A stretch of DNA of 52,621 nt. Origin: an uncultured Planctomycetia bacterium (GTDB lineage Bacteria > Omnitrophota > Gorgyraeia > Gorgyraeales > Gorgyraeaceae). Under the pieces are notes generated by a model. That model searched no databases, had not been told where the DNA came from, and worked only from the letters and a program-made list of their open reading frames with translations. The number at the start of each line of letters is the position of its first letter. Positions within the stretch are counted from its first letter, which is position 1. The stretch lies in assembly GCA_964445715.1 (NCBI GenBank), contig CAYULJ010000001.1, forward strand, positions 1-52,621, read 5' to 3'. Positions 2-52,595 of the stretch are shown piece by piece. The position numbers and the translations under genes were made by a program.

Positions 2-545
2 ATAAAAGATGACCTGGATAGCTATAAAGATCTATATGGCTTTGTCTCTTACCTGAAGAAAGTAAACTCTCTTGATTCTGCAAAGCTCTTTAATGAGATA
101 GAAGAACTGACTTATGAGACAAAAGACCTTATCGCGGATAATGAAAATCAAAAACTCCTCACAAAATCCTTCAGACATATAAGATTCTTGGAAAATTTCT
201 TTAATCTTAAAGTTTCAAACGAAGATTTGGATTACTATCTTAAAAATCCAGAAGACTTCAAGGTAGGCTTTTTCGAGGGTTTCTTGAAGCGCAATTTGAA
301 AGAATACAAGATAGGCTCTTTCATAGACTTTAATCCTGACCTGATAGATAAATACCTGCCAGAGCTCGAATCCTTCTACAGAATAGCCCACAAAAGAGAC
401 GTGGCAATGTTCAACAACGCCATAAAAGAAATAGAAAAGCGCAAGGTCAAGACCTCTGCCCTGATAGCAGGAGGGTTCCACACCAGAGGCATAACAGAGC
501 TTTTGAAAGAAAAAGGTTATTCCTATGCAGTTGTCTCTCCATATT
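2..545 (+). other. Domain in giant ORF: C-terminal half of a Tiki/TraB/ChaN(GumN)-like fold, cut by the window edge
   Basis: AHKRDVAMF (R-D-x-x-M, nt 386-412) is followed by LIAGGFHTRG (G-x-x-H, nt 461-490). This matches the second-half signature of the Tiki/TraB/PrgY/ChaN superfamily. The first-half motifs would lie upstream of the window. Confidence 0.4.
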
Positions 546-24500: not shown

Positions 24501-27500
24501 GGCATGTCCAGCAAGGTCAGTACACTCTAGATGTCGATGCTAATACGCTTCGCACTTTCCTCCGTGAAGAGTCGCCCAACGAACATCGCATAGTAATGAT
24601 GTACGACTTTCTGCCAAAGTTCACTCCGTGGCTTGTAATAGTAAAAGGAGAAGAGACTACTTTTAAGCTGATGCACGCCATGACAGGGCTTCGTTATCCA
24701 TTAGAGCGCTTGCGATTCATCGCTGCAGGCGAAACCTGGGATGTTGAGACCGAACAGTTAATTATTGAAAACGTTGAAAAAGGCATCATGCCGCCAAACC
24801 TTGAGTTTAGAGGCATGGCTGTCCGTGAAGAGAATATAACCCAGGCAGATATAGAGGCATTGCCTACGGAAGACCGCAGATGGCGCCTGCGCAGGGCAGT
24901 CTGGAGCCAGTCATCACAGCCATATACCAAACCTGGTGCAAACACAGCAGTCTTAGGCTTCTCTGATGGTACGCACGGCATTATCTATGACAACGAGAAT
25001 CTGCCGCAAGAGAATCAAACCTTACAGTTTGTCTTAGCGACAATGGATGGCGTCGCGACAGTGCGTAGCCTTGCAGATGGAGCGTTTAAGGAATCTCTTG
25101 AAGCAATGTCAGACATATCAGATGTTGATGTATTAGTGCGTACCTATATGGGTAAATTAACGTCGGAAGAACGGCAAAACCACTATCGCTTTAACCTGAA
25201 GCAGGGTCGTATCCTCAGGCGCCACCTCAGGTATTTTGTGAACCACACACTTCCGACACTATTACGTGAGACAGAAACAAACCAAAAGCTTTTCTCAACA
25301 GCGCTCCTTTTTGAAGAGATAAAACAGGAAATGCGACAGCCAAGAAGCAAGAATCCGTTTGAGAATCAGAGCAGAGAAAACCGTATAAGGGACCTCATAA
25401 ACTTATACATTGTGCTGGCCAATATGCCTGGATATGGCGAGGCAGCAACTGAATATATTAAAGGAGAGATAGGTAAAGATGAATTTATAAAGAGACTCCT
25501 TATAGGAGAATTTAGAAGAATTAATGAACCTAAGAATGGCCAGGGACGGCTTGCCAAGATTAACACCGCGCTTCAAACCACTGACCCGGACAGGTCCAAG
25601 GGGTCACAGGGCCAGGTAGCAGCATTTATGCATGGTGAATATGCAAGCTGGTACACTGCTGGTTGGGATGGTTTTCATGCTGCCCAGGATACGTTTAAGC
25701 CGCTTGGAGGCACCACTGGATACTTCTGCGTAGAGCCAGTAGAGGAGATTGACTGGGAAGATGATGAAGTTATCGATAAATTAAAATTAAAGGAAGATGC
25801 AGAGTACGAAGGCGTTGATCCAGGCGCTACGTATGCTGATATAATCAGCGGACATTATGTACAAAAGAACAAACTGCTCACCTTAGGTGCCTGGGATGAA
25901 TTCCAGGTCGCAGAAGACTACATGCTTGGTATGATGTTGTGGTGGTATGGATTTAATGTCGCAGCATTCTATAGCGTTACCCCTGAAGATCCAGGTGGCT
26001 TTGAGTCAGAGTTTGGATTCAAGTTCAGGCCAAAACAGATGTCCCGCTGGGTCAAGGGATACATTATTGGGTGGGTCATTGCAACCGAAAGCCCTAAGAA
26101 CATGCGTGAGCTCTGGGAACGTAAGGGGCTCTGGGGTTATATAGTATTCTTTATCCCTACCCTAGCCAGTACCCTAAATCCGCTGTTATTTAGTGTTGCC
26201 CGCGCAGTGGCGCACGTATGGTGGCTCTTCTTTGTGCCTATCGCATGGATAATCAAATACGCCAGTAACAACGCAAATCTTCATGCCCTGCTCCACCAGA
26301 CCCAGCTCGGGGACCTGTTGCTTAATATACAGGAGGTTGCCCAGAGCTTTATACCAGACAGCCTTAACTTTATGCCGTCTTCAACCGCATGGATCCTCGG
26401 AGCTGGGATTGTCTTTGTCCCATTTATGTTGCATACTTACTTTACAATCCGGGGCATCTTTAAAGGTGTAGCTGATTATCTTGGCAGGGAAGTAATGCTT
26501 GCTGAATATGATGAGTTGCTCGAGAAGGCGCTTGGAAAGACGATTTCGCCTGACATTGAAGAAAAAAATACCCTGGCAGATCCCAATAGAAGAGCTATTG
26601 TTGAAATGTTTCTGGATCAAGAAAAGAAGATCGACCGACTTTTAGAGCAGCATGATTTATATACTATGTTGCCGCATATGAATGCGCTCATGTCTTCTGA
26701 ATTGCCCCAGGCTAAGGAGCTTCAGGAGCTTTTGACAAGAGTTAGGTCTGGGGAGATACTTACCTTAGACGAAACGCGTACGCTCAATCAATTGTTGCTC
26801 AGTGCTGTTTATGTCCAGAGTGATAGTTACTATGTACCTGTCTTAAGAGAAGTCCTGTCGCGCCGGGATATTATTGCGACTGGTAAGCTAATAGAATCCC
26901 CGGGCATTATCTCGCATACAAAATGGTACAGACGCGCTAGTATTCTAGTGGCTGGCTTGATTGCCACAGTCATAAGTCCGGGCATGGGTATATGGTGGCT
27001 GACCATTGGCCTATGGGCTGGTGTTACAGCAGTGATTGCATTTGTGTTATATCTGGGCATTATGTTTATGGGCAACCGCTATATAAATGAAGCAGACAAT
27101 GATATCGAAGAGCGCAGTGTCCGCGCAATGCGCTTCAGGATGGCAGCGCCCAACCTATTCATAGGATTTTATCATACCTTATATATACTTGGGAATGCAA
27201 TTGCCTGGCAAGAGATATTGAGTGGGGCGCGAGTTGGCTACTGGTGGCGAACGCCTCGTACGATAGGGATTCTTGAGGACATAGAAACCCGCCACCTCAA
27301 GAAGAAGTCAGATGACGTGGAAGAGGAAGAGAAGGAATTCTTAACAAAAAGCAAGTGGTCATTGCGAGCCAAGGTTTATGACAATAAAGAAATGGAGATG
27401 AATCTTGAGCAGGAACGGCTTACTGTTAAATTGTTATATAACTGGGGTTTTGTAGGAGCAATGCTGCTTTTGACAACCCTTGGCTTGCGTTGGGACATGC

Positions 27501-30500
27501 GGGATTACCTGCTCTCGGCAGATGTGTCTTCGGTTCTTGTAAATATGAAGGCACCGTTCCCATGGCTTATGACTGGTGCATTGTCGTTGGTAGCTGTGGC
27601 TGGAGCTATCTGGGCTATTCGAGCATTGCGAACTCGTCGTGAAAAGCCAACTACAAGCCATGTCTCTGTCCGAGGCTCATTAGTAGCTGGGGCAGTTTCC
27701 AGTGTAGGCGTCCTTGCAACAGCCAGTGCAGCTATAATAGGGCTGCCTGTTGTGTTGGTAATCGGTCTTGGTGCAATATTAGGACTGCCATCATTTGCTG
27801 CAGCGTTGTTCTACTCTGCTCAAGGCATATTGATATTTATTGCAAGGCATGGTCTAATAAGAGGGCCTGACAGGTTGAGCGAGAGATTTAGCAGTGTCTC
27901 CTATCGCCTCGATCCTACCTCAAAAGACCCTGCCTATGTAAGAAATAACATCCTCTATATAAATGAAGACATAATGAAACTCCTCCCAATCTGGCTGCAG
28001 GAATCTATATTAGGACATGAGCTTGATCACCTTACGGGAAAAGGTGAGGTAGGTGCTTATATCGGACAAGTATTGAGATTACTTCGCACCTTTAGCGCTC
28101 GCAATGACAAGGAATATATCCTTAATTTAACCCAAGGGAATCTCAGAAATCATACTAGGAGAGTCGCGCAGATAGCGGTTTTACTCGGTCGCCATATGGG
28201 GTTGTCGCGGGAAGAGATCAATGTCATTGAATATCTTGCATTGGTCCATGATTTAGGTGCTTCTCAGGATGTATTTACGCCAGAAGAACTCGATGCGCTG
28301 AAGAAAAAACTTGAAACTCTTGGAATACCCCATGAGGATTACAAAGGTTTTGCGCCTCGGGGCCGATATGAAGAATTTAGAACCCGAGTAAGTGACTTAC
28401 CCGAAGGCACTTTCACAGATAAAGAACAGAGGAATATAATAGGCAGGTTCTATCCTGCAGATAGCACTTTGGCTTTCCTCCGCGAACATGGCCTTCCTGT
28501 AACTCCTGAAGCAGAGCTTATAGTTGGATATCATCATATGTACGATAGGCTTTCACAAGATCCAAGGCTAACGCCTACGAACACTGGATTTGTAAAAATG
28601 GCCCTAGCTATTCTTATTACTGCTGATGTATTTGAAAATGGTAACAATGTGGTTAAGAGAACAACCTGGTTTGACAAGGGGCCTGAATCCCCTGAAGAAA
28701 CACTCGAATTCCTAGAGCAGACATATGCTCAACAAGGGATAGAAGATAGACGTTCCCTGGAGGCATTAAACCAATTAATCGCAGCAGAAAATGAAGAACT
28801 GTTTGATATCGTCCGTGATGCAAGAGATCTTTCTTTGCCAGGCCGACAGGTCAAATATCCTGCTCTTCGAGCCACGCTTACGCGTCCGACAACGCAGGTA
28901 ACATTTGTCATTGAGCTGGCAGATGGTTCTCGCAGGTATTTTTCCCAACGCATAGATCCCGTCATTCTAGATAACGATGAGTCTTTCCAGAGAGCAGTCG
29001 CGGATCTATCCAGAGAATTACAGAGTATTCTTTGGGGCATAGGAGGAGAAAGGGTATGGGTATATTCTTCCAGCAACGCGCCTCAGATAGTTGGACTTAT
29101 AGACGGAGTCATAGGAGAATTCTCTCCTGGTGGCCGCCACCATGATGTAGTCAAGGCGCTTTCCTGGATGTATGGCCGTGAGCGTAAAGACATTACCTTT
29201 CATGTAGATAAGCCTTCCAGAAGACAGACACGTTTCTTTAGAATAGAAAGAGTTATTAATTTCTTAAAGAGGGCTTTCCGCAGGATATTCAGTTTTTATA
29301 TAAGGCGTAAAGAGACAGAAGAGCTTGAAAAACTTTCTAAGGCAAGAGATGTAAGGAACAATATCTCTTCTATAGACGTAGGAGGTTCTGATATAAAGAT
29401 AGCCGCCTATAATAATAGAGGGGAACTAGTGTTCCTGAAGATACATAAAGGAGGCTGGAAGCCTCATACATTTACTCGCGCAGCACAGCATGAAAAAGTA
29501 GTTTTGTCGCTTTTGAGATTGACCCGGCTTGCTATAAGTTTATCCCTTATTCCAGAATCAGAGAGGGATAATGACGTGGATGTTATTATGGCCAGACTGA
29601 AAGAAATAGAGCGCGATAGCAGTGTCGATATAGTAAGTGAAAGCGGTATAAAAAATTTCGTAGAAAGCGCTGAAGAGATCTTGGCTCAGAGAATGGCGCG
29701 CTTGGACGCTATATCTATAAGCTGGCCTGACGTAGTTGTAGATGGACTAGCTGTAGGCGGAGATACATCAAAGACCAGAAATCTTTCCGGACGCAGAGAC
29801 GAAAGGACTAGTCGACCAAAAGACATATATCTCGACGATGAATATTGGGATGAATTCGAAAAACTCATGCCGCTTGCCCAGACCGTATCTCAAAACTTTG
29901 AGAATATACCTGTAACGATACTCAATGATGGCCGCGTAGGTCCTTTTGGAGCAGGAGTTATACTGGGTAGATCAGATATATTAGGCATTGCCCTGGGCAC
30001 AAGCGTTGGTTCTGGAATTTTCACTATAAAAGAATTACCCGATTCCCCTACATATATAGGCCGTATGGATCTACCAGAAGCACCTGTGCCTGACGATGTC
30101 TGGCCGACCGGGCCGATAAGACCTGCTGCGCTTTACATCTCGCAGAAAGGAGTAGCGCGCCTAGCGCCCAGTAAAGGTATTGACCTGGATAGATTTGGAA
30201 ACGATAACCGGGCCAAACTGGAATACGTGCAAGGGTTGGTTGATGAGAACCATCAAGGGGCAATTGAGATATTCGAGCAGATGGGCGAATGGTTGGCAGA
30301 TACAGTGACAAGGGCGCGTTATTACTGGAGTGAAGACGGCATAAAGACTGTTGTGCTATTTGGAAAGGTTACGCAGGGCGCATCAGGAAGGATTATGAGA
30401 GATGTTGCTCAGGGAATAGTAGCCTCCCATGGCATAGAACTCCTTTTCGCCTTTGATCTTACTGATGACAGCGTGGCGAAAAATCTGTCTCATCTGCGTC

Positions 30501-33500
30501 CTGAGATCGAGACCATGAGTAATTTAGCAGAGAAAGAGGAAATGACCAATGACCTCACGCAGGACTTTTTCCAGGCCATTGCCGGTTGCTGGCTGGCTAA
30601 TTATAATCTGGGAGCGGGAGATAGAGCTCCTGAACAGACCTCGTTTTCACTTCCTTCTAATGTAGTAGCGGCATTGCAGACACTTTTGCCTGGCGAAAGG
30701 ATCGACGACACAACCCAGGCAAGACAGATATTAATGGGTACTTTCAGGGCATGGGTTGAGGGTATGGCAGGAGTGGAAGATTTGATCGCTTCTCAGAAGA
30801 GAGGCCATGAGCAGGCGCAGGAACTTTGTGAAAGGTTCCTGGCAGTAGTGTCTGTTGGTTTAGCCAATGAATATCAACGCCCTCTTGATGAAATAACCGA
30901 GTCTGAGTTTGACAGAATGTATGGGGCAATACCGATCATCCTCGCAGGCGGTTTTGGAGAAAGATATTCTCGTAATGGCCTGATGCATAAGTCTATGGGG
31001 CATACGATGCAGGGCGAGACAAACTATCGTTTTGCGCTTTACGGTGGACACTTCTCGCCAAGGGCGCGCCCTGTAGTGACGATAAGTGACTTATCAATCC
31101 GGGCAGTCTTAAAGGATGAGGTATTGTACAGGCTTGACAGAGGCGAGGTGACATTCGATGACCTTATGCCTGTTGAAAAATATAAGATAGCCATCATATC
31201 GGAAGAATTCCTTGACCGCGAAAAGCTGGCGCGTTACTTTACCGAAGATTCTGTAATAGTGCGTTGCAACGGAGATGGTTATGGCGGAGAGTTCATGGAT
31301 GTCATAAGAGAGACCCAGAAAGAGAGCCAGGATGGATTTGCGTATTACATCCGCTTGGATGACGGAAGCGCCCCCAGCATCGATCCCGAACTCCCATGTA
31401 TTCATCTGGTTGCGTGGATGGAAGCAGTGGCCTCCCAGAATCTTATTACCGTAGGACTTAAAAATGATACAGTAATAGCGGGTAAAGGCAATCCTGTCTA
31501 TGATGAGAACGGAATGGTCAAGAACCTGATAGACTGGCGCAATATCTCTTTCGCGGAAAGAAAAGACCTCTTGCTTCAGCTTGTGAAAGATATCCCTGAA
31601 AACAGAGACCTCAGGGTAAGGCTTGAGTTATTCGAAGAACTGGCACCTGAGGAAAGGGCATTGTTGATAGACGAGATACACAATAATATTCCTCTGGACA
31701 GCCGTAATCAGATGCTTATAAACGCCAACTGCGTGGTGCTGCACCGTGGCGCAATACCTTATTTTGCCGAAGTAAAAGAGCATCCGGCGCTGCAGGGCCA
31801 GGTTGATGATCGCAAAGGTATAGCGGAATTCTCTCCCAGGGACGCGATGGTCGTTATCCATTCAGAGTATAAGGAAGGGCGTATTCCATTGGGCCATGTA
31901 GAATTCGAGAGAGGCGTAGACAGCGTGAAGAACGTATGGATACAGAGCGAGTTGTCTCGTTTATGGCAGTCTCAGATTAAAGAGGCCTTAGCAGAGTTTC
32001 CCGGTGTGGATACGGACAGATTAGATTATCTCTTGATTTATGGCGGACCTGGTGGGGCCAGGAATCCTATTGATGTATTAGGGGAGATATTCGGTTCTAA
32101 CCCGGAAGGCATATCGCTGCGCGGGAGAGTTATGCTGGATGCCAACGTGCGGATAGATTCCGGAGTAACGATAGAGGATAGCGTTCTTTTGGGCTCGACT
32201 GCAGTAGCTGAAAGAGCTAATATCAGTAACAGTACATTGCGTAATAGGCAAGTAGGTTCCGGAGATACGGTTGAAAGCGAAATACATTTGCCTGAAGCAG
32301 AAGATACATTATTGAATGATTCTTACTATGAGCGTGGAGGTTCAGGTGTTCCAGAAGAACTATGGGATATCCTGCACGGCGAACCCCTGTTTAGTCCTTT
32401 GACTTCACCTGCCCATAAGACCAACGGACAGATATTAGAAGATATCAGGTATTTGCGTTCCATCGCGCTAGGCGAGGAAGATGATGTCATTGATATAGAT
32501 CGCTCAGAAGACCCTGCTTACGTAACCAATATCATACTTTCCCATATAGGTTTATTTAGCAATCTCTGGACCCAGGATCCTCCGGTTGCAGGGCAGCCAG
32601 TAGTTTCGCCTGTACCTATAGAGGATATACCTTTTGAATTCCCAGAGCCTGAACAGGATAGCCTGGTAAGGGTTTTTGGCAAGCTTGTCTTTGACCCGGT
32701 CAGCAAGTTGATGACGCGCGTTATAGACCAGATAATCATGGCTGGCCCGGTCAGGCTCGCTAATAGTTCGGTCAAGATCGGCAATGGTACATACCTGGAT
32801 GAGGTAGATGTGAACAGCGCTGCTTATATCGGAGATGGATGGGCTATTGTCTCCAGCGAATTAGGACAGAGAGAGCAGGAAGGATTGGTGATTTTAGGTG
32901 ATCATCCTCTGGTGATCGACAAGCGTTCGCGTCGTTATTGGCATCGTTCGCCAGACAGCGGCAGACTAAATAATCCTACTATTATGCAGGATGTCGATAT
33001 ACGGGCAAAAAGGACATACATAGGCCCGGGCGCAGGTGTCGATGTTCCTCATGAAAGGGGCCGTGTACTTAAAGGAGCGGTCCTGAGCGGAGAATACGTG
33101 ATAATCCCTGAAGGCAGAGAGATCACTTCTGATATAGACGGGTTAATGCAGGAGGAAATAGACCTTATCCAGACGCTTTCCTCTGAAACGGTATATAATG
33201 CATCCCACGTCCTGTTGGATGTATTGCAAGGCGAAGATGTCGGAAGGTTTACTTCTGCGGCCACTGCATTGTCTGTATTGATCGCCCAGGATAAGAGGGC
33301 ATTTGTAGAGGACATCCTATCCTGGCTTAGAGCCGAGCACCCTGAATTGAACAATGTCTTGATGCTTAAGATGGTGGCTATATCCCGTATAGTCGATGAG
33401 CAAAAAGTCTTCCGTGGGTTTATATTAGAGCAAGACATTGCGCCTCGTTCTCCTCCTCGGTTTACCAGTTATGATAACATCAGGGCTTCATTGGACATGC

Positions 33501-42500: not shown

Positions 42501-45500
42501 CGCACGCAGACTATTATATGTCGAGGATGCGATTTGCAGACGAGGACGGAAAGCCGACTCTGGATTATAGAGGCAATCCTATTGTGAATTATCAGGGAAA
42601 TCCTCTTACGCTTGAGATAATGCCTGCTTTAGAGAGGCATCAGTGGGATGTAAGAAGGCAGATAGCCAGATTATATCCTATACGAGAAAGGGATTTGGAT
42701 GAAAAGACAAAAGGCGGAAGATTTAGATATGCTATTTTCGATAATATTACAGGCAGGTGGAAAGGCCAGGCCAAAGGCGATAAAGAGGATACCCGTTACC
42801 TATGGTCTGAGATCAATCTTGATGTATTGGATGGGACTGCGGATAGTCATCTTTTCGGGCCAAGACTTAATCAAGATGCAAATCTGTTAATACTTCGGGA
42901 GCATTTAACATACTTTGAGCCGCGCAATGAAGCTGCAGGCTTGCCTGTTAAGGTCCGTTATCTATACAGAGAGCCTGTTAGCGCTACAATTGTAGACGAA
43001 GACGACAAGGTTGTTTATAAGGAAGGCACGCCATGGTCAAGGAAAATCAGATTTGGTAAATTAAGCAAAAAACCTGAATCCTACCGTCCAGCCGATGCCA
43101 ATGACCGGAAACTCCTTGTTGATGCTTGTGAGGCAATATTAGATTTTAATATGTTAGTTGCGCTCGAAAAATTGGACACATTCTGGCAGAGAAAAATTCC
43201 AGATGAAAATCACGGACTGGCAGAGAAGTTGGCAGAAGCAGTTAAATTTAAGATAAATAGTAATGATGCAGGAACGGATGTGGCTGATTTAATTGAAGCG
43301 TGGGAAAATAACAGAATAGGCCATAGTTATGAAGACGTTGTGGATAAAATTCTTTTTTATAAATCAGGACAGGGAGAAGTTAGAAAATTAGAAGGCAGCA
43401 TGTTCTTATACCTTTTTGTCGTATGGGCAAGGGCTTTACAGGGACAGGCAGATTTTGGATACAGGCAAGAAGATATTCATAGAGCATTTAAAAGAGCCTT
43501 GATTTATACTTATACGAGCTCACATGAATTGAATCAGGCTAGAGAAAGCGGATTGGTCGATCTTGATTTTGCGCTGTTAAGGTTATTTCTAGGCCCTCCT
43601 CAGCTTAATCCGAGAGAAAAAGAAACGCTGACTCGTATACCTCAACTGTTATTAGAAAAAGGTGTTAATGAGGCTCTTAATGCGAGATATTATATTAGTG
43701 CCATAAAAAAGCTGGGAGGGCGTCCCGTGAGAGACGAAGGTTACGCTGCTAAGCTCGAACAGTGCCTCTATGTTGTTGGGATAGCTGGCAAAGTAGGCCT
43801 TATCAAAAAAGCCGATGTCAGGTTGCTGAAAACTATTGTAAATGGATCCAGGATTCTTAGTTATAAGATTCAAGGTTTATCAAATAGAGAGATCGGTCGT
43901 AAGCTTTCTATGGGTCGCTCTGTAGTCAGTAGAACTTATAATAGATTCAGAGAACTCATTGGCCTGGGTCATATGTTAGAAGGTCTAATTCGCAGTCAAA
44001 GTCTAGATCTTGAAATGCACCTTGAAGCTGCGGAGATAGCTAAAAAGAGAGACCTTATGGAAGACGATCTTAGTTCAGTTAGAGAAAGGCTCTCGGCCCT
44101 TAAAGAAGCAACTAGCAATATCTCCTCCTCTGATACCAAAATAGCCAGTATAGCCGCTACCCTGATATCTATCTCGACAATAACAGCAGGATACCTGACC
44201 CGCTCTGTGCCTCTATTGGCTATAGGCCTTGTGCTTCTTCTGCCTGCAGCCATGTTCATCTGGTTTTTCTTTAAACTCAGAGCAACTGAGACTAGGCTCG
44301 CCTCTGGTGAAATCAGGGCAGGCCCGTACGAACCCATAGGACTTTTCCAAAACAACGCAAGCCCTGACGAAGACCTACGTTACCTTGCAACTACTATAGA
44401 CGGGATCATCTACTACCATCCAATTGAGCTTACAAATTACCACCCGATAGAACAATACCTTATATATATACATGAATGGGCGCATAAGAAATTTGCCTGC
44501 ACAGGATTTAAGATGTTGGATGAATTCCTTGCGTATGGCTTTCAGTGGTTGTGCATAGTGGCCGTACCGGTTGCACTAGTTCTTTTATTACAACAGTCCG
44601 GGCAAGGCTTGTCTAGAAACACCCTCACTGTGCCCCGTACGCAAATCGTAGATTTCGTACGGGGCGTGGCTGGTGGGGCTTCTGGCTTTGCCTGGGCTGA
44701 GCTATTGGGATTTATAGGTATGTGTGCGATGGGAAAAGGACCTAGGCAATTGAACATGTTCGGTGACCAGGGCGATGATTCAGGGCCTGACAGCGATGAA
44801 TCAGATGATTCACAATCTGAATACAATGAGATAAAAGAAAGAATTTTGGAAGCTCTAGCTAGTCTAATAGAATCTGCCAATGCTGAAGCTGTGAAATGGA
44901 CAAAAGAGTTAGAAAGTTTACCAAAAGGCCATACGTCAACATATACTTACTTAGGCGAGATAAGCCGTCAGGAAGCGATTGCCAGAAAAGCTCAAGAGGC
45001 AAAGGATGCCTTGGAGAATAAAGGCGCAAAAGGCCTCATCAGGTATCTGAATAAAAAAGACCGCAGCCGGACGATAAGAGATAGAGGTCGAGGGGTGTCG
45101 CCTTATACTAAGGCGAAGAGTGATATTAGGCAAGCCATACTGGAAGATGCTCAAGAGCTACGCAGTAAAGAGATAAAGCTAGAAGGAAGTTCACGAGGAC
45201 AAGGCCTTGTATTATTTAATATTATCTTTGCTGTAGTCCTAGGGTTAGCCGCGTTGTTATTTGGAGATTTTCTTATAGACCTGATTTTTACAGGAGCGTG
45301 GGATACGCCAGCAGTTCCTAAGGTGTTACTGGCCAGTTCTCTTGGCGGTTTTGGCCTGTTGCAGAAAGCCCTTGGGATTATTGATGGCACCCAAATATAC
45401 GAAGATATTCGAGAAGAATATGGCACTGAATTAAGTGAAGCGCAGGAAAGGATTGCGTTCTGGAGAGACAAGATATCCGAAGTCGCTCCAGATGATAGCG

Positions 45501-48500
45501 AATTATTGACTACGCTCGAATTTCATTTAAGACTGGATACATTTATTGCGCGTATGAATACAGAGATATTGGAATTATTAAGCTCTGTTAATCTTTCTGA
45601 CTTATGGAAACTTCTGGAATTAAACTATAGGATTAGTAGTAGTCTTGCTGCAATCGTAGATAGCGAAGACATTGATCAGCTATCCAGATTAGAGAAAGAG
45701 TGGGAGTCAAAAAAACTTTCTATCTCAATGCAAGTGGTGCAGCGTTCTATCGAGTCTTCCACCTCTTCTCCTAATTCCATCGCCTACCGCATCGCAAGGC
45801 TTTTCTCAGTCGATGAAGAAGTTACCAAACGTATCGGGATCGCTGGTTTATGGCTTGAGATCCCATTACTACTCTGGGCTTCAGTGACTCAGCCTTTTGA
45901 ATTACTTGCGCCAGCTCTGTTGGGTTTTGTAGCACTTCACATAGTTTTAGAGGCAATAGAGGAGTATCGTGCCCGAGGGCAGCTTGATTGGGATAGAGGA
46001 GATGTTATAAGGCGTTTTATTACCCAGTCTGCTGTTTTTGCACCATATGCACTTATTCCACTTGCCATTACAATTAGCTCACCTCTATTATTAGTCGGCC
46101 TCATGCTATTTGCAGCCTTTACGCATATTATTTATGATTTGAAGAAATTTGATACTGCTGTAGAGGGCCTATCTTTTGATGAGATTATCGAAGAGATAGA
46201 AAAGTCAGTTGCGGCGCATGATACAGCTAGGGCAGATCGACTGATAGATGAACTCGACAAGAGACTTGATCTCTTACTTGGAGATCCTTTTGCTGGACAA
46301 CCTTCCAAGGTGACCAATGCCTTAGTATATCTTTTAGAGAATGTCTATAATTCCGATAACATCGAATATTTTTTTAGAATCGCTGCTATTATACTGAAAT
46401 GGCAAATTAAGAAGCCATTGGTTTTTAAGTATCTAAGAGCTTGTCTACAAGACCAACCAGTTTCTGTAATAGTTGAGGCTGGTTCTCTTCTTCTGGGGCA
46501 TACGTCTGCAACCCCGGATAATATAAAAGCAATGAGGGCTTTGACATCTGTGCTAGGAGGCTATTACTCAACCAATGACGAATCCCTTAAACTCAGGGTG
46601 AAAGATATTTTATTAGCAGAACGCAGGAAAGATAAAGTCTGCTCTGCGCTTTTATATGTGTTTCAGGATGCGACACCTGAGGGAAAGCAAGAGTTATGTT
46701 CTGTGCTTGGAGAATTAAAGAATAGAGAAAGCGTCGAGCCTTTACTTAATATGGCAAGAGAAGAATCTAATCCAGCTCTTAGATCTATTATGGCGCAAAC
46801 TATAACTGAAATACTTGAACTTCCTATAGAGCCCGAGTTAATTTTAGAGAGTGATTTCGAAGGTCTTAGAGAAAGAGTTTCGCAGTATATAAATGACGGT
46901 ACCTATGGAGAAAAAGCACAAGAGGTTTTGATAGGCTTGGATATGGGAGAGCCACATGAATTATTGTCTATGTTAGATAAATATACAATAGAGGTTGTGG
47001 GTAGGGATTTGGCTGCAAAAGATGCCATTAAAAAGAAAGCCCTTCAGGTATTAGCATTGGCAGAAGAAAAGGTGGTAAATTTTGGTGAGGTTATAGAAGA
47101 TGTTCTGCCAGCGGTCATACTTCTGGATGGCTTGGGTTCGACTGATATTTTAGATGCGCTTCTTGTTTTCTTTATTGCGCTGCACGAATCTGCGCCAGGA
47201 GGGAGAAAAGTCTTTTTAGACCGCGCTGAGTTTCTTCCGGGCGTTAATCCTAATCGGCAGATACGACATAATGGTAGTAGAACTCCTGTTAGAATGTCAG
47301 ACCGCGTTAAAGATGCAAAACCTCAAGAAATCATTTCTCACTTTGCAAGCATGACAGAGAAAGTGAAGATTAGACGCTGGGATACTTCTTCTATGAGACT
47401 TTCTTCTGAGCGCCAGGTGGCTTTGCGTGACGGTGATTTTATTCTTGAAGATGACCTTAGAAGGATAGGAGATTTCTTGGAGCCTATAGAGATCAGAGAC
47501 GGGAGAGAAGTTTACGACTTGAAAGAAATAACGCCGCGCAAGGGCGTTAAAGTAGTTGCTAACAATAGATGGGCAGGGGGGCATACTAAGTCCACGGAGC
47601 TGCTTCTGCTTAGCCCAGTCGGACTAGACGGTATTGGGACTATTTGCGAAGATGTTCTTTTTGTAAGACACAAGGTATCTAGCGGAGATACACAGGAGAA
47701 CGTGTATCTTTTGTATTCTATATACGCAAATATGCTTCCGAGCATTCTTAAAGAAGGAGTTGAGAAGGGTGAAGTAACCCAGAAGGATATTCGCAGGGCT
47801 TTAAGAGATCGACCTGTAGCAGGTGTTCATATAGGGTTAGATGGAATGATTGTTATCCAGCCCTATTATTGCTGCACGGGTTGGGCGCAATATTCTTTTG
47901 ATCCGGTTAGCAACCTAACAGTAGGAGGAGAGTGGGTATTTCGTAGTTTTATCAAGAGACTGGAGGGATTAGGCTATGGCCCTTATGAGGTTGAATATAC
48001 TCCTTCCGGTATTATTTACGATTCAGAAGGTTTGGTAGTATCTTTAGTCAGCGCAACTGCAGAAAATCCAAAAATGAAATCTCCTTTAAGAGATTATTTA
48101 ACCATGAGAGATGCTGACCCAGGGACACCTTTTTCGGAACACCAGCTAGAGATTATTAGAAAATATGGCCTGGAAGGTGTGGACTGGTTAGCGTTTATGA
48201 CATCGACTGTTCCAGATGATACTCCTGGAGATATAAGAGAGGCGGCTAAGAGCGTAGTAGCGAGAATAAGAGAAGGAGAAGAATATAGGGACATAAGAGA
48301 TTCCTTTGCCGATAGAATGCGCCTTGCTTTAGATACGATATTTTTTGGCATTGGCAATAGATCAGCAGCAATCGGTTCAGATGTGACAGGCGCAAACTTT
48401 AACTTTGACGGCATGTTTGGCAGAGGGAAACTTTCTGAAATGGATGTTCTCCTAATAACTGCTGACATACAGCGATCTGTTGAGCTGCGAAAGAAATTGA

Positions 48501-51500
48501 AGGATAACCGAAAATTAGGTTACAGGCTTCTACCTGACTTGGATGAAGCAGTGATTAGCGACATAGAGAGTTTTGTTATAGATAGAATAAGGGCAGGTGT
48601 TAGGGATTTGGTCTTGCTGGGCATAGGTGGTCAGGCCTTAGGAAACATTACACTTCAGGAGACATTGGTTTCCACTCTCTATAACAGATTTCCGCAGTTA
48701 AGAGGCAGTTATCCAAGGATACATATCCTTGATAATGCTGACGCGCAAGACCTGAGCAGATATTTAAAAGAGAACAGACTCGATCCCAATACGACAGATA
48801 TATATATCAGCTCTAAGTCAGGCGGGACTGTAGAGACGCTGTCTAATGCGTACTTCTTCCTTAATTGGCTAGAAGGGTCTGTAGGCGAAAAAGAGGCGAT
48901 CAAACATATTGTAGTTACTACCAATGATGCAGAGAAGGGGTTACTTTATGGCTTTGCGAAGGAGAAAGGTATAAAGATGTGGTTTATACCCACTGAACAG
49001 GATGAAGATGTCCCTGGCAGGTACTCAGTGCTTTCAGTGAGTGGATTGCTCTCTGCTGCGTATGCAGGCGTTGATGTGCGTAAACTTCTTGAAGGCGCAA
49101 AGTCAATGCATAGTAAGCTGGAATCAGATGACCCCAGGGAAAATCCTGCGTTCCGCGCAGCGATCTTAGCCTATCTTGCTTATTTGGATGGGAAAGATAT
49201 TTTTATTCTAGGCACATATTCGGAAAAACTGCGCTCATTCGCTGATTGGTTAAGACAGTTATTCGGAGAGAGTTTAGCAAAAGACGGAAAAGGTATATTT
49301 GCCGGAGTAGCATCTGGTGTTGATTCTATAGAGGCATTAATAAATAGCCCTGATGACAAGCTTTTTATTCTTTTAGACTATTTACCCGAAGGGATCGTGC
49401 CTCCGGAATTTCGCGATAGATATAGTATCAATTTAGAAATAGAGCATTTGGATGAATATACCGCAGGTCAACTTCTTTACTTCTTCGAGGAATTTACAGT
49501 TAGGTTTGCCAGCCTTTTAGGGATCAATCCTGTTATTCAACCTAAGGTTGGCCTATTGAAGACAGTATTCCAGGACCTTGCTAGAGAGCCCCTGAGTAGA
49601 AAAATAAAGACCCGTCTATTTCTCGATGATAGTTTTGCCTTTGGAGAAGGAGGCATAGATGGGGATGAGTTACGATCGAAAGAACTAGAGGCCAGGGAGA
49701 TTTTAGATGCAACTACAGTTACAGAACCCAAAGAATTATTAACCTGTTTACGAGGATACTTTAAAGAGGTTAGCGCCCAGATAAACAGAGAAAAAATAGA
49801 GCACCTTATTATTATTGGCAAGCGGGCGCACACGTTAAAGGCGCGTGCCCTAAGCATGGCTTTTAGTGACATAAAAGTCCATGTATTTGATGAGACTAAG
49901 TCTGAGACAGTCGAAGATCTATTGCGACTGATCGGGCCTAAAAGTACATTGGTTCAGGTGATGACTGAGCCAGGAGATAAGAGGGAAGATTTTATTCACT
50001 ACAGAGCAGTATATACGTGGGTAAGGAGGCATTATCCAAATCACATAATCGCCACAACAAATGATCCAGAAGGTAGATTTCCTGAGTTTGTAGATGAGGA
50101 TAATGTTGTTAAATTAGGCTTGCCGCAAGAAATTCAAGAAGCATGTTCAGTCAAAGGGATTTCAACAAATGAGATCTTGCCAGCGTATATATTAGGAGTG
50201 GATTTAGAAGAATTGCATAAGGGTATCTTGGGCGTCTCTACGGAATTAGCTGCTCGAATTTTAGCTATACAGTATTTAGCATCTAAAGAAGGGAGAAAGA
50301 TAAATGTAGTATTTACCTATTCTAATGCCCTAAAAGGATTTAACTCCTGGCTAAAGGCAAGGTTTAGACAAGCTTTGGCAGGACTATATAGTCATCCTTA
50401 TGTAGAGACTGCGATTGGTACGACAGATAATCATTCTATCATCGAAGGCATACTCAATGGCCCTAATAATGTCTTCACTATTTTTATAGGGCTATTAGAA
50501 GACCCGGCTTATACAGATGTGCTTAGAGAGGGTGAATTTGCCAGTCCTTTGGTGCCAGATTATCTTTTAGGGAATAGTATGACGGATATATCCACTAAAT
50601 TCCGATTAGGCGCGAGTGAGACTTTTACCAGAGAAGCCAGGTCGAATGTTACTGTAGAGGTACCCCGCCTAGATGCCCGCTCATTGGGAGAGCTGTTTGG
50701 GTTGTTTGAGATGGCAGCGGTCGGGCTTAGAGGGTTGATTATTAATGATGAAGCTGATGAAAGTCCTCATGAAAGATTCAAGATAGCTAGCGAATCGCTT
50801 AGTCAAACAAGTGCCTTGGAATGGGTGGGACCTGACTTACTTGATAAGTTAAAGGAGATAAATGAAGGCAAAGAGCCAATAGCGATAGACCTTAATATTA
50901 ATACACTGCCAGAAGTCTGGGAGATGGATATCCAGGATTTATCGGAAAAGTATAATGTAGATCCTGGCCAGTTTGTCGTATTAAAGCTTGTCTCGACTGA
51001 TTTTGAGGGGAATATAGTTATCCATATAGTGGCTGATAGGCTCGAGCGGATCAATATCAGTAATCTTGGTACCGTATTTTCCCCTATACAGGATACGTAT
51101 CTTTATAATTTGCGAATAATATTGGATTATAAACAAAATTCTGTTATTAGCGAGGAGCGTTATATAAGTAAGGAGATCAGAGGAAAAGGCCTGGGGCATG
51201 AAATACACGTTAATCTAAAAAGGTTATTAGTCAAGTACGGATTTGCAGGATTTTCAATACAAACGTCAGCAGTTAATTTTTACACAGCAAGGACATTCTT
51301 TTCTCTTTACAATGCAGAGATTGACTGGTCAGATCCTTTGAATTTTATAGGTAGGAGGCAAGGGAGATGGAGAGGAATTTTTTCTCGCCTTGGCATTACG
51401 ACATCTACAGATACTGAAAACTTACCTATAAAAGAACTAATGCCAGACCTTTCATTTTTCTATTTAAGAGATTTTCTTAATAGGGCTAAGACAGAGGATG

Positions 51501-52105: not shown

Positions 52106-52139
52106 CTTTACACTTCAACAATGTTAAAGTGTATACTTA
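52103..52139 (+). repeat. Palindromic element E1 (degraded copy), starts at the stop codon of the giant ORF
   Basis: The sequence is TAACTTTACAC-TTCAACAATGTTAAA-GTGTATACTTA. The 11-nt arms pair at 9 of 11 positions around a 15-nt loop. It shares about 29 of 34 positions with E2. An alternative inner fold is TACACTT/AAGTGTA (52109-52133). Confidence 0.7.
52107..52137 (+). promoter_or_regulatory. Weak sigma-70-like promoter candidate embedded in E1
   Basis: TTTACA (52107-52112) and TATACT (52132-52137) are separated by 19 nt. The same geometry exists in E2 (TTTACA 52561-52566, TAAAGT 52586-52591). The promoter consensus of the host is unknown. Confidence 0.2.
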
Positions 52140-52169: not shown

Positions 52170-52559
52170 GTGAATAAGATCAAATATGGCGTCAAAAATG
52201 TTGCTCAGGTTGTATCGGGTTTTGGCGAAGTTTACCCTTGCGTATGCACAGATGATGGGATCTTGTTTGCGGATAAGATAGATGCACTGAATAAAAAAGA
52301 GAGGGCGAGGCATATCTATGACGTTATCTTTATGCTTTCTAACAAATATCCTATAGATAGAGTTTTTTTGAAACGTCTTGGCATAAAGAAAGAGCCTTTC
52401 GAGGTTATTTCTGATAGGATAAAAAGCTTTTCAAAAAAGGATTTGAGAAAACAGGACGAGACATTAAGGCCTTTTCTCTTTGATGAGAGCGAAGCGGATC
52501 TAGTAGCAAATGCTGATGAAGTAATACCGAAATTATTGGAAAGATATATGGAGTCTTAA
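52170..52559 (+). CDS. Small ORF (129 aa), possible C-terminal remnant of an AbiEii/DUF1814-like nucleotidyltransferase toxin
   Basis: GTG at 52170 is preceded by AAGGA (52159-52163) with a 6-nt spacer; TAA at 52557-52559. KIDALNKKERARHIYDVIFML resembles the conserved C-terminal K..AL..R...RD.YD motif of AbiEii-type proteins. The N-terminal nucleotidyltransferase half is absent. The family call is from motif memory only. Confidence 0.5.
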   Translation: MNKIKYGVKNVAQVVSGFGEVYPCVCTDDGILFADKIDALNKKERARHIYDVIFMLSNKYPIDRVFLKRLGIKKEPFEVISDRIKSFSKKDLRKQDETLRPFLFDESEADLVANADEVIPKLLERYMES

Positions 52560-52595
52560 CTTTACACGTTAACATTGTTAAAGTGTAAAGTTAAG
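52555..52595 (+). repeat. Palindromic element E2 (perfect 13-bp arms), starts at the stop codon of the 129-aa ORF
   Basis: CTTAACTTTACAC (52555-52567) and GTGTAAAGTTAAG (52583-52595) are exact reverse complements around the 15-nt loop GTTAACATTGTTAAA. E2 lies 454 nt downstream of E1 in the same orientation. Confidence 0.8.

What the first reader, a model, noticed from the sequence alone, without database searches (positions are those of the whole stretch)
24611..51340. Pathway-in-a-polypeptide: sugar activation and polymerisation enzymes fused in one frame
These domains follow one another in a single frame:
- a GT2 processive-synthase-like core flanked by TM bundles (23.1-27.9 kb)
- a ROK/polyphosphate-glucokinase-like kinase (29.4-30.5 kb)
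- a sugar-1-P nucleotidylyltransferase with left-handed beta-helix (30.9-33.1 kb)
- a CofD/YvcK-like domain (33.9-35.4 kb)
- a possible HAD-IIB/PMM-like domain (35.9-36.7 kb)
- tandem PGI (48.5-50.8 kb)
- a GNAT (51.0-51.3 kb)
- an LMW-PTP of the kind that regulates polysaccharide assembly (41.4-41.9 kb)
These correspond to hexose -> hexose-6-P -> isomerisation/acetylation -> hexose-1-P -> NDP-sugar -> polymer, steps normally encoded by separate genes. With three GH5 hydrolases in the other half, one protein would both build and cut a beta-linked glycan. The substrate (Glc, Man or GlcNAc) cannot be read from the sequence.
Basis: inference. Interest (0 to 1): 0.85.

Follow-up and report, generated by a model that had tools for sequence, protein, structure and literature searches.

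The report
Sugar-enzyme mosaic in Omnitrophota giant protein
The window is one enormous gene (over 17,000 codons) of an Omnitrophota-type bacterium, and it does fuse a sugar kinase, a nucleotide-sugar-making enzyme, sugar isomerases and a membrane glycan synthase in one protein; this kind of fusion is already described for that phylum, so it is a new, well-dissected example and not a new principle.

Summary
One ORF fills the window (nt 2-52105, at least 17,367 aa, open at the 5' end).

**Six of the eight claimed families are supported at the stated coordinates:**
- GT2 synthase-like core between hydrophobic bundles
- ROK-type kinase
- sugar-1-P nucleotidylyltransferase plus beta-helix
- CofD/YvcK
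- LMW-PTP
- tandem PGI

The three GH5 (mannanase-like) domains in the other half are also supported. The HAD/PMM-like domain rests on motifs only. The GNAT has no support. No phosphohexomutase is present.

**Source.** All relatives are Omnitrophota MAG fragments. Two preprints (2023, 2026) already describe giant multi-TM Omnitrophota proteins carrying sugar-metabolism domains such as ROK, PGM/PMM, PGI and glycosyltransferases. So the "pathway in a polypeptide" idea is a plausible reading of a known phenomenon, but it is not shown.

**Linkage to other genomes:**
- The GT2 module is conserved in 22 genomes, without the downstream enzymes.
- The transferase-CofD block recurs in other giant proteins together with PGM/PMM.

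**New details:**
- The nucleotidylyltransferase family is invisible to Pfam.
- The two PGI copies are complementary cripples that together could form one composite active site.

Verdict: new member of a known kind; interest moderate.

The parts
2..52105 (+). Giant ORF, at least 17,367 aa, open at the window's 5' end; stop at 52103-52105
   Evidence: About 50 hydrophobic TM-like segments. Homologues only in Omnitrophota MAGs.
23105..24142 (+). Hydrophobic bundle (about 6 TM-like segments) before the GT2 core
   Evidence: Kyte-Doolittle scan. Part of the module conserved in related loci.
24614..26101 (+). GT2 processive-synthase-like catalytic core (aa 8205-8700) with an insertion of about 230 aa. 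Motifs: TKPGANT (aa 8309), YDNE (8329), GGTTG (8569), GAWDE..AEDY (8629), KQMSRW (8678).
   Evidence: invariant motifs. Pfam Glyco_trans_2_3 E 2e-5, and 10 of the 23 aligned sequences match. PGAP names homologue P0002 'glycosyltransferase'.
26141..27844 (+). Hydrophobic bundle (about 10 TM-like segments) after the GT2 core
   Evidence: Conserved with the core across loci.
28124..28681 (+). HD-superfamily phosphohydrolase domain (H..HD..HH..D); not in the finding
   Evidence: Pfam HD 24.1 bits, cut-off 22. Motifs. Homologous stretches in P0008 and P0072.
29351..30481 (+). ROK-type ASKHA sugar-kinase-like domain (aa 9784-10160). Motifs: IDVGGSD, ILNDG, LGTSVGSG, VVLFGKV. No Zn-Cys or ExGH motif.
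   Evidence: 36 of 69 homologues match Pfam ROK. Direct scores are sub-threshold.
30794..32281 (+). Sugar-1-phosphate nucleotidylyltransferase fold (GGFGER..HK signature at aa 10316-10330) followed by a left-handed beta-helix (aa ~10705-10758)
   Evidence: AF2 pLDDT 79.8, pTM 0.80. Foldseek top 50 are all USP, GlmU, UGPase, AGPase or UAP1. Profile vs PDB hits the LbH of eIF2B-gamma at 1.3e-5. Conserved motif.
32699..33151 (+). Second beta-helix-like stretch (IGNGTYLDEV...), conserved with the transferase in other giant proteins
   Evidence: Fold not tested.
33869..35311 (+). CofD/YvcK-type domain with a long insertion (GGRGAAW at aa 11296, ATDDGRS at aa 11326)
   Evidence: Pfam CofD 49.6 bits; TIGR01826 YvcK 36 bits. 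PDB 2o2z and 2hzb weak. Colinear in P0005, P0006, P0007, P0009.
35834..36646 (+). HAD-like stretch (YDKDGNL, IITAK, IEKDRA, GDEVMSGND): unproven
   Evidence: Motifs conserved in four proteins. No Pfam or PDB support.
39119..39871 (+). HEAT repeats
   Evidence: Pfam HEAT_2 9e-35. alphaRep and HEAT hits in PDB.
41378..41794 (+). Low-molecular-weight phosphotyrosine-phosphatase domain, P-loop C-E-S-N-A-F-R-S intact
   Evidence: Pfam LMWPc 29.8 bits, cut-off 23.2. Motifs.
48491..49621 (+). PGI-1. Keeps the phosphate loop SKSGGTVET, GRYS, the catalytic Glu (GES) and the C-terminal Lys. The ring-opening His is deleted.
49790..50782 (+). PGI-2. The phosphate loop, Arg and catalytic Glu are lost. The His motif TTDNHS is kept.
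50999..51301 (+). Claimed GNAT: only an R-G-K-G-L-G motif; not supported
   Evidence: no family hit for the GNAT stretch: E up to 10, E up to 1.
4619..5641 (+). GH5 beta-mannanase-like domain 1 (NEPE at aa 1721)
17279..18301 (+). GH5 beta-mannanase-like domain 2 (NEPE at aa 5946)
20039..21211 (+). GH5 beta-mannanase-like domain 3 (NEPE at aa 6866)

Best explanation
**What it is (shown).** The window is one giant gene of an Omnitrophota-type bacterium. It encodes a mosaic protein that crosses the membrane many times, of the class already described for that phylum. In a single frame it carries:
- a GT2 glycan-synthase-like domain with the D / DxD-like / ED / QxxRW signature, set between two hydrophobic bundles;
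- one membrane-free stretch of about 3,250 residues holding an HD phosphohydrolase, a ROK-type sugar kinase, a sugar-1-phosphate nucleotidylyltransferase with a beta-helix, and a CofD/YvcK-type domain;
- further on, HEAT repeats, a low-molecular-weight phosphatase and two PGI copies;
- in the other half, three GH5 mannanase-like hydrolases.

**How it most likely works (inferred).**
- The membrane-free block lies on the cytoplasmic face, because its enzymes need ATP or NTP.
- It works as a membrane-tethered sugar-activation platform: hexose is phosphorylated, hexose phosphates are interconverted, and a sugar-1-phosphate is turned into a nucleotide sugar next to the synthase.
- The synthase polymerises and exports a beta-linked glycan.
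- The GH5 domains cut such glycans outside the cell.
- The mutase step is not in this protein and must come from elsewhere.
- The two PGI copies are complementary. PGI-1 keeps every residue that a PGI subunit gives to its own active site. PGI-2 keeps only the histidine that a subunit lends to its partner. Folded together they would form a pseudo-dimer with a single working site.
For: **Domain identities**
- (details under the observation check).
- Signature residues are kept.

**Topology**
- One TM-free block, aa 9282-12533, holds HD, ROK, the transferase, CofD and the HAD-like stretch.

**Conservation of modules**
- The GT2 core plus both TM bundles is conserved in 22 Omnitrophota species.
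- The transferase-LbH-CofD(-HAD-like) block is colinear in the giant proteins P0005, P0006, P0007 and P0009.
- P0005, P0006 and P0009 also carry Pfam PGM_PMM domains.
- The giant gene upstream of P0006 carries a ROK-like domain, E 1e-37.
- So kinase, mutase and nucleotidylyltransferase travel together in this protein class.

**PGI**
- The ring-opening His comes from the adjacent subunit, while Arg273, Gln354, Glu358, Lys519 and the phosphate loop come from the same subunit (PMC5668625; catalytic roles in PMC9436075).
- The window's two copies split exactly along that line.

**Literature**
- A sugar-metabolism module (starch synthase, GT1, PGM/PMM, ROK) and an inner-membrane-anchored, cytoplasmic-face reading are described for Omnitrophota giant proteins.
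Against: - No phosphohexomutase is present in the window. The HAD-like candidate is unsupported. There is no GNAT.
- The enzymes downstream of GT2 are not found next to the GT2 module in the 22 related loci. The fusion seen here is therefore one shuffling outcome, not a conserved unit.
- GT2, ROK and the nucleotidylyltransferase all fall below the curated Pfam/NCBIfam cut-offs when scored directly.
- The GT2 fold could not be checked. The AF2 model was poor, pLDDT 44.5. The profile found nothing in PDB sequences. hhalign against E. coli BcsA aligned only the DxD region, E 0.16.
- Membrane topology is unknown. The hydrophobicity scan cannot place PGI, LMW-PTP and GT2 on the same side.
- Substrates are unknown.
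- Published authors favour a prey cell-wall degradation and sugar-salvage role.
- No other tandem PGI of this kind was found among 1,562 hits, so the pseudo-dimer rests on one sequence.
Confidence: 0.5

Rival explanations
1. Salvage, not synthesis. The GH5 domains and the rest of the protein attack a host or prey surface glycan. The kinase and PGI domains feed the released hexoses into glycolysis or storage. The GT2 and the nucleotidylyltransferase serve an unrelated purpose, such as an adhesive exopolysaccharide or storage glycan.
For: This is the published reading of Archaeovorin-type proteins: cell-wall degradation, with glycolytic domains 'pre-processing sugars'. The window has three GH5 mannanase-like domains. 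PGI and ROK fit catabolism as well as synthesis. The GT2 module is conserved without the downstream enzymes.
Against: A nucleotidylyltransferase has no role in catabolism. In relatives it travels with PGM/PMM, which with a nucleotidylyltransferase points to NDP-sugar synthesis. In L023 a gene with a weak starch-synthase hit follows directly.
Confidence: 0.22
2. A mosaic without coupling. The domains are independently shuffled cargo of a giant scaffold. Several are binding or regulatory pseudoenzymes, for example YvcK-like UDP-sugar sensing, PGI-2, and the LMW-PTP. No channelled pathway exists.
For: Modules reassort between giant proteins and occur in different orders. PGI-2 has lost its phosphate loop, Arg and Glu, and PGI-1 has lost its His. 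The ROK domain lacks the Zn and ExGH motifs. YvcK-type proteins are annotated as UDP-GlcNAc binding (TIGR01826). The 2026 catalogue groups HD, HAD and GNAT as 'regulatory architecture'.
Against: Most signature catalytic residues are kept and are invariant across diverged homologues. The losses in the two PGI copies are complementary and not random.
Confidence: 0.18
3. A CofC/CofD-like logic. The conserved transferase-LbH-CofD block activates a phosphorylated compound as an NDP-adduct, then transfers the phospho-moiety to an acceptor and makes a phosphodiester. This parallels 2-phospho-L-lactate guanylyltransferase CofC followed by the transferase CofD in F420 synthesis. It would decorate a glycan or lipid and not feed the GT2.
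For: The nucleotidylyltransferase and the CofD-family domain are adjacent and colinear in at least five giant proteins. The CofC-then-CofD chemistry is established knowledge of those families.
Against: The CofD domain scores better with the YvcK subfamily (3.7e-9) than with F420 CofD (0.031). The transferase model matches hexose-1-P enzymes with LbH tails, not MobA/CofC-type enzymes.
Confidence: 0.1
4. A polyprotein. The giant product is cut into separate enzymes, so the fusion is genetic only. This is compatible with any of the readings above.
For: Four HExxH motifs lie in similar contexts at aa 2343, 9339, 12963 and 14824. Two sit in 57%-identical TM-linked modules. The literature raises cleavage by peptidase domains.
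Against: No peptidase family was detected by Pfam in the three HExxH contexts that were scanned (aa 9339, 12963, 14824). No cleavage sites are known.
Confidence: 0.15
5. An assembly or frame artefact that creates a false single ORF.
For: A 1,731-nt tandem duplication with one mismatch could be an assembly effect.
Against: 52 kb without a stop in one frame at 44% GC cannot arise by chance. Homologous giant ORFs occur in many independent assemblies.
Confidence: 0.02

Closest known systems
Omnitrophota giant multi-TM mosaic proteins ('Archaeovorin' type; West-Roberts et al. 2023 bioRxiv 10.1101/2023.11.21.568195; Nielsen & Lui 2026 bioRxiv 10.64898/2026.06.07.730766)
   Same: Over 10,000 aa with dozens of TM segments. 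Contains HEAT repeats, glycosyl hydrolases and transferases, ROK, PGI, HD and HAD-type domains. All homologues are in Omnitrophota MAGs. Domains are highly divergent and often visible only by structure prediction.
   Different: No SecA-DEAD, C39 or S8 domain is found in the part held by the window. The glycosyltransferase here is a QxxRW GT2, not the GT5 or GT1 stressed in those papers. The nucleotidylyltransferase-LbH-CofD block and the complementary PGI pair are not mentioned there (term searches).
Processive membrane GT2 synthases (BcsA, PgaC, hyaluronan, chitin and mannan synthases)
   Same: The motif series is K.G.N, DxD-like, ED and Q(x)xRW, with TM helices on both sides. Pfam Glyco_trans_2_3 is the only family hit.
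   Different: DxD reads D(A/N)E. An insertion of about 230 aa splits the core. No PilZ domain is present. Scores are below the Pfam cut-off. hhalign to BcsA is not significant. The fold is unverified.
GlmU / UDP-sugar pyrophosphorylase / ADP-glucose pyrophosphorylase / eIF2B-gamma and -epsilon (nucleotidylyltransferase + LbH)
   Same: The predicted fold and domain order match. The G-G-x-G-x-R...K signature is present, with a C-terminal hexapeptide helix.
   Different: About 11-13% identity. No Pfam NTP_transferase hit. Large insertions give TM-scores of only 0.31-0.46. The family is found only inside giant proteins.
Bacillus-type glucose-6-phosphate isomerase homodimer
   Same: PGI-1 is 31-35% identical to canonical 450-aa PGIs. 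Both copies align over the two SIS domains.
   Different: Two fused, unequal copies with complementary loss of active-site residues. At most one composite site instead of two.
CofD / YvcK (GlmR) family
   Same: Pfam CofD above its cut-off. The N-terminal GGGxG-like and DDG motifs are present.
   Different: An insertion of about 180 aa. The domain is embedded in a giant protein directly after a nucleotidylyltransferase. It is far below the equivalog cut-offs (36 bits against 196).

Membership tests
Omnitrophota giant mosaic ('Archaeovorin-type') proteins | Very long single ORF (>10,000 aa) with many TM segments | tested here: met
   At least 17,367 aa and about 50 hydrophobic segments.
Omnitrophota giant mosaic ('Archaeovorin-type') proteins | Relatives in phylum Omnitrophota | tested here: met
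   Nearly all homologues of the GT2 module are labelled Omnitrophota MAGs; a few carry other labels (uncultured Planctomycetia, Auribacterota, UBP3). Identity 27-54%. The source contig itself was not found.
Omnitrophota giant mosaic ('Archaeovorin-type') proteins | Divergent SecA-DEAD domain (reported in most full-length examples) | tested here: not met
   No such Pfam hit in any slice. The N-terminus lies outside the window.
Processive GT2 synthase | D, DxD, (T)ED and Q(Q/R)xRW motifs in order | tested here: met
   GETWD, YD(N/A)E, AEDY and KQMSRW are present. The last three are invariant in 23 sequences. DxD is D-x-E.
Processive GT2 synthase | Family HMM above curated threshold | tested here: not met
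   24.9 bits against a cut-off of 27. 10 of the 23 aligned sequences match at E<=0.01, best 2e-7.
Processive GT2 synthase | GT-A fold with a TM channel | tested here: inconclusive
   AF2 pLDDT 44.5. TM-like segments flank the core.
Processive GT2 synthase | Polymer synthesis from an NDP-sugar | not testable with these tools
   Needs biochemistry.
ROK family kinase | Family HMM above threshold | tested here: not met
   Pfam 11.9 bits and TIGR00744 16.6 bits.
ROK family kinase | Homology to ROK proteins through intermediates | tested here: met
   phmmer hits E 1e-22 to 1e-6. 36 of 69 match Pfam ROK.
ROK family kinase | ASKHA ATP motifs (DxGG(T/S), NDx catalytic Asp, GTxxG) | tested here: met
   IDVGGSD, ILNDG, LGTSVGSG.
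ROK family kinase | ExGH and CxCGxxGC zinc motif | tested here: not met
   Absent from aa 10005-10060. Polyphosphate-glucokinase-like ROK members also lack the Cys motif (own knowledge).
Sugar-1-P nucleotidylyltransferase + LbH | Rossmann-like nucleotidylyltransferase fold followed by a left-handed beta-helix | tested here: met
   AF2 pLDDT 79.8. Foldseek top 50 all belong to this family, E<=1e-7.
Sugar-1-P nucleotidylyltransferase + LbH | G-x-G-(T/S)-R and Lys signature | tested here: met
   GGFGER..HK. G53, R57 and K66 are nearly invariant in 20 sequences.
Sugar-1-P nucleotidylyltransferase + LbH | Family HMM above threshold | tested here: not met
   No NTP_transferase hit in the window or in 10 homologues. 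Hexapeptide and LbH hits are only sub-threshold.
CofD/YvcK | Pfam CofD above threshold | tested here: met
   49.6 bits against 30, covering profile positions 100-252 of 290. N-terminal motifs seen by eye.
LMW-PTP | Pfam LMWPc above threshold and the C-X5-R-(S/T) P-loop | tested here: met
   29.8 bits against 23.2. CESNAFRS.
LMW-PTP | Wzb-type partner of a BY-kinase | tested here: not met
   Wzb equivalog scores 18 bits against 243. No kinase partner detected.
Phosphoglucose isomerase | Family HMM | tested here: met
   NF010697 235.6 bits; Pfam 79.5 bits; PDB 2q8n 3.8e-38.
Phosphoglucose isomerase | Full catalytic set in each copy (phosphate loop, Arg, Glu, His, Lys) | tested here: not met
   PGI-1 lacks the His. 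PGI-2 lacks the loop, Arg and Glu.
HAD-IIB / PMM-like | Motifs I-IV and a family HMM or fold | tested here: inconclusive
   Motif-like strings are conserved in 4 proteins. No Pfam hit. PDB PMM2 only E 1.1.
GNAT | Family HMM or fold | tested here: not met
   No hit: E up to 10, E up to 1.
GH5 (clan GH-A) | Homology to GH5 enzymes with the NEP acid/base Glu | tested here: met
   A 3-sequence profile hits GH5 mannanases at 1.1e-8. NEPE is invariant. The nucleophile region did not align reliably.

The most novel reading that the evidence does not exclude
Omnitrophota giant proteins contain a conserved, Pfam-invisible nucleotide-sugar factory: ROK kinase, PGM/PMM in relatives, a divergent nucleotidylyltransferase-LbH, and a CofD/YvcK domain. 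In this organism it is fused to the phylum-wide QxxRW GT2 synthase module. Together they would form a membrane-tethered metabolon that converts scavenged host hexoses into an exported beta-glycan, possibly mannan-like given the three GH5 mannanase-like domains. Its tandem PGI would have evolved into an obligate pseudo-heterodimer with a single composite active site.
Probability: 0.2. Interest if true: 0.7.

Novelty: new member of a known kind. Interest (0 to 1): 0.45.

Why it matters
Giant Omnitrophota proteins are among the largest known, and most of their sequence has no assigned function.

This window shows that careful dissection can turn "unannotated" stretches into recognisable enzymes. 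The methods were exhaustive HMM searches, intermediate sequences, and structure prediction on alignments built from other giant proteins.

It also shows that a kinase, a nucleotidylyltransferase and a CofD-type domain recur together. In relatives a mutase joins them.

If the fused enzymes really supply the adjacent GT2 synthase, this would be a rare bacterial case of substrate activation and polymer export on one polypeptide. It would also hint at how these ultra-small episymbionts build or remodel a surface glycan.

The complementary PGI pair is a clean, testable example of a homodimeric enzyme turning into a fused pseudo-heterodimer.

Tried and rejected
- **Large word-index query.** A 4,583-aa query timed out.
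- **Word-index search with aa 9800-10800.** It found nothing. The exhaustive phmmer search was needed instead.
- **GT2 fold.**
  - AF2 with a 5-sequence alignment gave pLDDT 44.5, so it was not used for a fold search.
  - The A1 profile against PDB sequences gave nothing.
  - hhalign of A2 against E. coli BcsA aligned only the K.G.N/DxD region, E 0.16.
- **HAD-like region.** The profile of four homologues gave no significant PDB or Pfam match.
- **GNAT.** Three scans found nothing.
- **First half of the protein.** Pfam and PDB searches with single sequences found nothing. GH5 emerged only from a profile of the three internal paralogues.
- **Source contig.**
  - An exact 45-mer scan of metagenome contigs gave no match.
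  - An exact look-up of the downstream 129-aa ORF found it not on record.
  - GTDB genomes held only relatives of 52% identity or less.
- **Other tandem PGIs.** A search found only canonical single-domain PGIs.
- **PGM/PMM in the window.** A search using P0006's PGM/PMM region as query found nothing.
- **Rejected: misassembly.** It cannot explain the long ORF.
- **Rejected: a 'string of pseudoenzymes'.** Most signature residues are kept.

Full report

The window holds a single long ORF on the + strand. The ORF listing reports 188-52105 (17,305 aa). The frame is already open at base 2, with no upstream stop, so the protein has at least 17,367 residues and its start lies outside the window. The only other ORF over 150 aa lies inside it on the opposite strand. 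Residue i corresponds to nt 2+3(i-1).

A hydrophobicity scan finds about 50 TM-like segments in clusters. It also finds one long membrane-free stretch, aa 9282-12533.

**2. Domain by domain**

A first Pfam pass over sixteen 1,250-aa slices gave only five families: HD, CofD, HEAT, LMWPc and PGI. The first 23 kb gave nothing at all. Taken alone, that would have refuted half the finding. Deeper tests changed the picture.

*GT2*
- Four Omnitrophota MAG fragments (41-54% identity) match aa 8034-9033. PGAP names one of them 'glycosyltransferase'.
- Twenty-two loci from GTDB species representatives carry the same module.
- In the alignments these motifs are invariant: TKPGANT, G..GIIYD(A/N)E, GGTTG.F, G.WDE.Q.AEDY.LG and Q..RW..G. 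This is the K.G.N / DxD / ED / QxxRW series of membrane GT2 synthases.
- Pfam Glyco_trans_2_3 scores 24.9 bits on the window (E 2e-5, cut-off 27). It is hit by 10 of the 23 aligned sequences, the window included (best 2e-7), with no competing family.
- The fold itself could not be verified.

*ROK*
- Direct scores are 12-17 bits.
- An exhaustive phmmer search of 1.84 billion representatives with aa 9780-10979 returned 230 proteins at E<=1e-3.
- The hits covering query residues 5-380 are mostly 430-620-aa proteins. 36 of the 69 scanned match Pfam ROK (best 5.6e-19).
- The window keeps IDVGGSD, ILNDG, LGTSVGSG and VVLFGKV. It lacks the ExGH and zinc-Cys motif.

*Nucleotidylyltransferase + LbH*
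- The rest of that query matched only other giant proteins.
- They share the signature (A/G)GGxGxR(F/Y)S..(H/N)K.
- Pfam sees no NTP_transferase in the window or in ten homologues, only weak hexapeptide and eIF2B-LbH hits at the homologous position.
- A 20-sequence profile hits the beta-helices of proteins that all have the transferase-plus-LbH build: eIF2B-gamma (1.3e-5), eIF2B-epsilon, GlmU (8.6e-4), ST0452, AGPase and GMPP.
- AlphaFold2 on that alignment gave pLDDT 79.8 and pTM 0.80.
- All 50 best Foldseek matches in the PDB are sugar-1-phosphate nucleotidylyltransferases: Leishmania USP 1.7e-10, M. tuberculosis GlmU 3.3e-10, then UGPase, AGPase and UAP1/AGX1. There are 366 matches at E<=1e-3. 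TM-scores are only 0.31-0.46, as expected with large insertions.

*CofD/YvcK*
- Pfam 49.6 bits; TIGR01826 (YvcK) 36 bits.
- The N-terminal GGRGAAW and ATDDGRS motifs precede a long insertion.

*LMW-PTP*
- Pfam 29.8 bits, above the cut-off, with an intact C-E-S-N-A-F-R-S loop.
- Nothing ties it to the Wzb subtype.

*PGI*
- Two copies are present.
- They were aligned with ten canonical PGIs.
- PGI-1 keeps SKSGGTVET, GRYS, the Glu of QLFGES and the C-terminal Lys. The TDxHS histidine is deleted.
- PGI-2 has lost the GGS and SKSGT phosphate loops, the Arg, and the Glu (now Gln). It keeps TTDNHS.

*HAD-like*
- Motif-like strings are conserved in four giant proteins: D-x-D-(G/D)-(T/N)-(L/M), (T/S)A, KDR and (G/D)(D/N)E....GN(D/G).
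- Neither Pfam nor a PDB profile search supports the family. PMM2 scores only E 1.1.

*GNAT*
- There is no support beyond an RGKGLG string.

*GH5*
- The three NEPE-containing segments are mutually related.
- Their joint profile hits GH5 beta-1,4-mannanases 3vup, 2c0h and 4oou (1e-8 to 6e-7).

*An extra domain*
- An HD-domain phosphohydrolase sits between GT2 and ROK.

**3. Context and relatives**

Nearly all relatives of the GT2 module are labelled Omnitrophota MAGs; a few carry other labels. The conserved unit is aa ~7100-9360, meaning both TM bundles plus the core. The HD, ROK, transferase and CofD domains that follow it in the window are not found after it in those loci.

The transferase-LbH-CofD(-HAD-like) block is colinear in the metagenomic giant proteins P0005, P0006, P0007 and P0009. 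The precomputed Pfam hits of P0005, P0006 and P0009 include PGM_PMM I-III and CofD. The giant gene upstream of P0006 contains a ROK-like domain (E 1e-37 to window aa 9746-10200). The gene after P0009 has a weak starch-synthase (GT5) hit.

So kinase, mutase, nucleotidylyltransferase and CofD-type domains form a recurrent neighbourhood in this protein class. The window itself has no PGM/PMM.

Window aa 7-217 is homologous to residues ~300-540 of these proteins and of the ORFs that follow GT2-bearing giant ORFs in five loci. The window's ORF therefore probably starts about 300 aa upstream, and such genes occur in tandem arrays.

**4. How it most likely works**

*Shown:* the domain families, their order, their signature residues, the membrane-free block, and the recurrent co-occurrence.

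*Inferred:*
- The block is cytoplasmic, because its enzymes need ATP or NTP.
- It makes nucleotide sugar next to a membrane synthase that exports a beta-glycan.
- The GH5 domains act outside the cell.

For PGI the inference has a firm structural basis. In PGI dimers the ring-opening His comes from the adjacent subunit. The phosphate loop, Arg273, Gln354, Glu358 and Lys519 come from the same subunit (PMC5668625; catalytic roles in PMC9436075). The window's copies have divided these roles exactly, so a fused pseudo-dimer would have one working site and one dead site.

*Weak points:*
- no mutase;
- unknown substrates and topology;
- the GT2 fold is unverified;
- the fusion with GT2 is not conserved.

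*Rivals.* These are listed separately with their evidence: sugar salvage, as the literature proposes; uncoupled mosaic or regulatory pseudoenzymes; CofC/CofD-like phosphodiester chemistry; and polyprotein processing.

**5. Comparison with what is known**

West-Roberts et al. (2023) describe Omnitrophota giant proteins with many TM segments, HEAT repeats, glycosyl transferases and hydrolases. They also report, less commonly, glucose-phosphate isomerase, PGM/PMM and other glycolytic domains. They stress that many domains appear only through structure prediction.

Nielsen and Lui (2026) catalogue 916 long proteins. Their 'sugar metabolism' module includes starch synthase, GT1, PGM/PMM and ROK (44 proteins). 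[quoted passage not shown]

The finding is therefore a new member of a described class. Term searches of the two preprints found no mention of three things seen here:
- the QxxRW GT2 module as a phylum-wide conserved unit;
- the nucleotidylyltransferase-LbH-CofD block;
- the complementary PGI pair.

**6. Verdict**

Novelty: new member of a known kind. Interest is about 0.45. The case is striking to a general biochemist and useful as a dissection, but it is no surprise to those who work on these proteins.

Noticed in passing
window 7811-9541 and 9566-11296: Tandem duplication of 1,731 nt (577 aa; period 585 aa) with a single mismatch, inside the giant ORF (aa 2604-3180 and 3189-3765). It is either a very recent duplication or an assembly effect.
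   Followed up: partly
window aa 2343, 9339, 12963, 14824 (nt ~7028, 28016, 38888, 44471): Four HExxH motifs lie in similar contexts. Two sit in 57%-identical modules (aa 12856-13000 and 14716-14870) that start with a TM helix and contain 'RAGPYE..GLF.NNA...YYHPIE.TNYHPIEQY'. They may be minimal zinc-peptidase or self-processing sites. Pfam scans of the contexts at aa 9339, 12963 and 14824 gave no peptidase hit.
   Followed up: partly
window 52170-52559 (+): The 129-aa ORF just after the giant gene is a C-terminal fragment of an AbiEii nucleotidyltransferase toxin (Pfam 2.6e-6, profile positions 141-213 of 238). An AbiEii gene also lies downstream of the related giant gene P0009 in L023.
   Followed up: partly
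window 52103-52139 and 52557-52593: A 37-nt palindromic element (TAACTTTACAC...GTGTA) occurs twice, 86% alike. Each copy overlaps a stop codon, one of the giant ORF and one of the AbiEii fragment. It may be a terminator or a REP-like element.
   Followed up: partly
window 2-650 (aa 7-217): This stretch is homologous to residues ~300-540 of several other giant proteins, and of the ORFs that immediately follow GT2-bearing giant ORFs in five Omnitrophota loci. It looks like a conserved N-terminal region marking the start of giant genes arranged in tandem. The window's ORF probably begins about 300 aa upstream.
   Followed up: partly
window 28124-28681: An HD-superfamily phosphohydrolase domain (H..HD, HHMYD) lies between the GT2 bundle and the ROK domain.
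   Followed up: partly
window 4619-5641, 17279-18301, 20039-21211: The three GH5-like domains are closest to beta-1,4-mannanases (3vup, 2c0h, 4oou). This is a weak hint at the type of glycan involved.
   Followed up: yes
window ~40330-40420 (aa ~13445): The string 'FGGAPRDAYIEKKLVDIDV' resembles the GG.(V)RD...DiD head motif of poly(A)-polymerase and CCA-adding nucleotidyltransferases (own knowledge). Pfam gave no hit for aa 13301-13733.
   Followed up: partly
L023-L026 (contigs of P0009, P0006, P0005): These related giant proteins combine PGM_PMM I-III with the transferase-LbH-CofD block. In L023 the next gene has a weak starch-synthase (GT5) hit. In L024 two GFO/IDH/MocA oxidoreductase genes follow.
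   Followed up: partly
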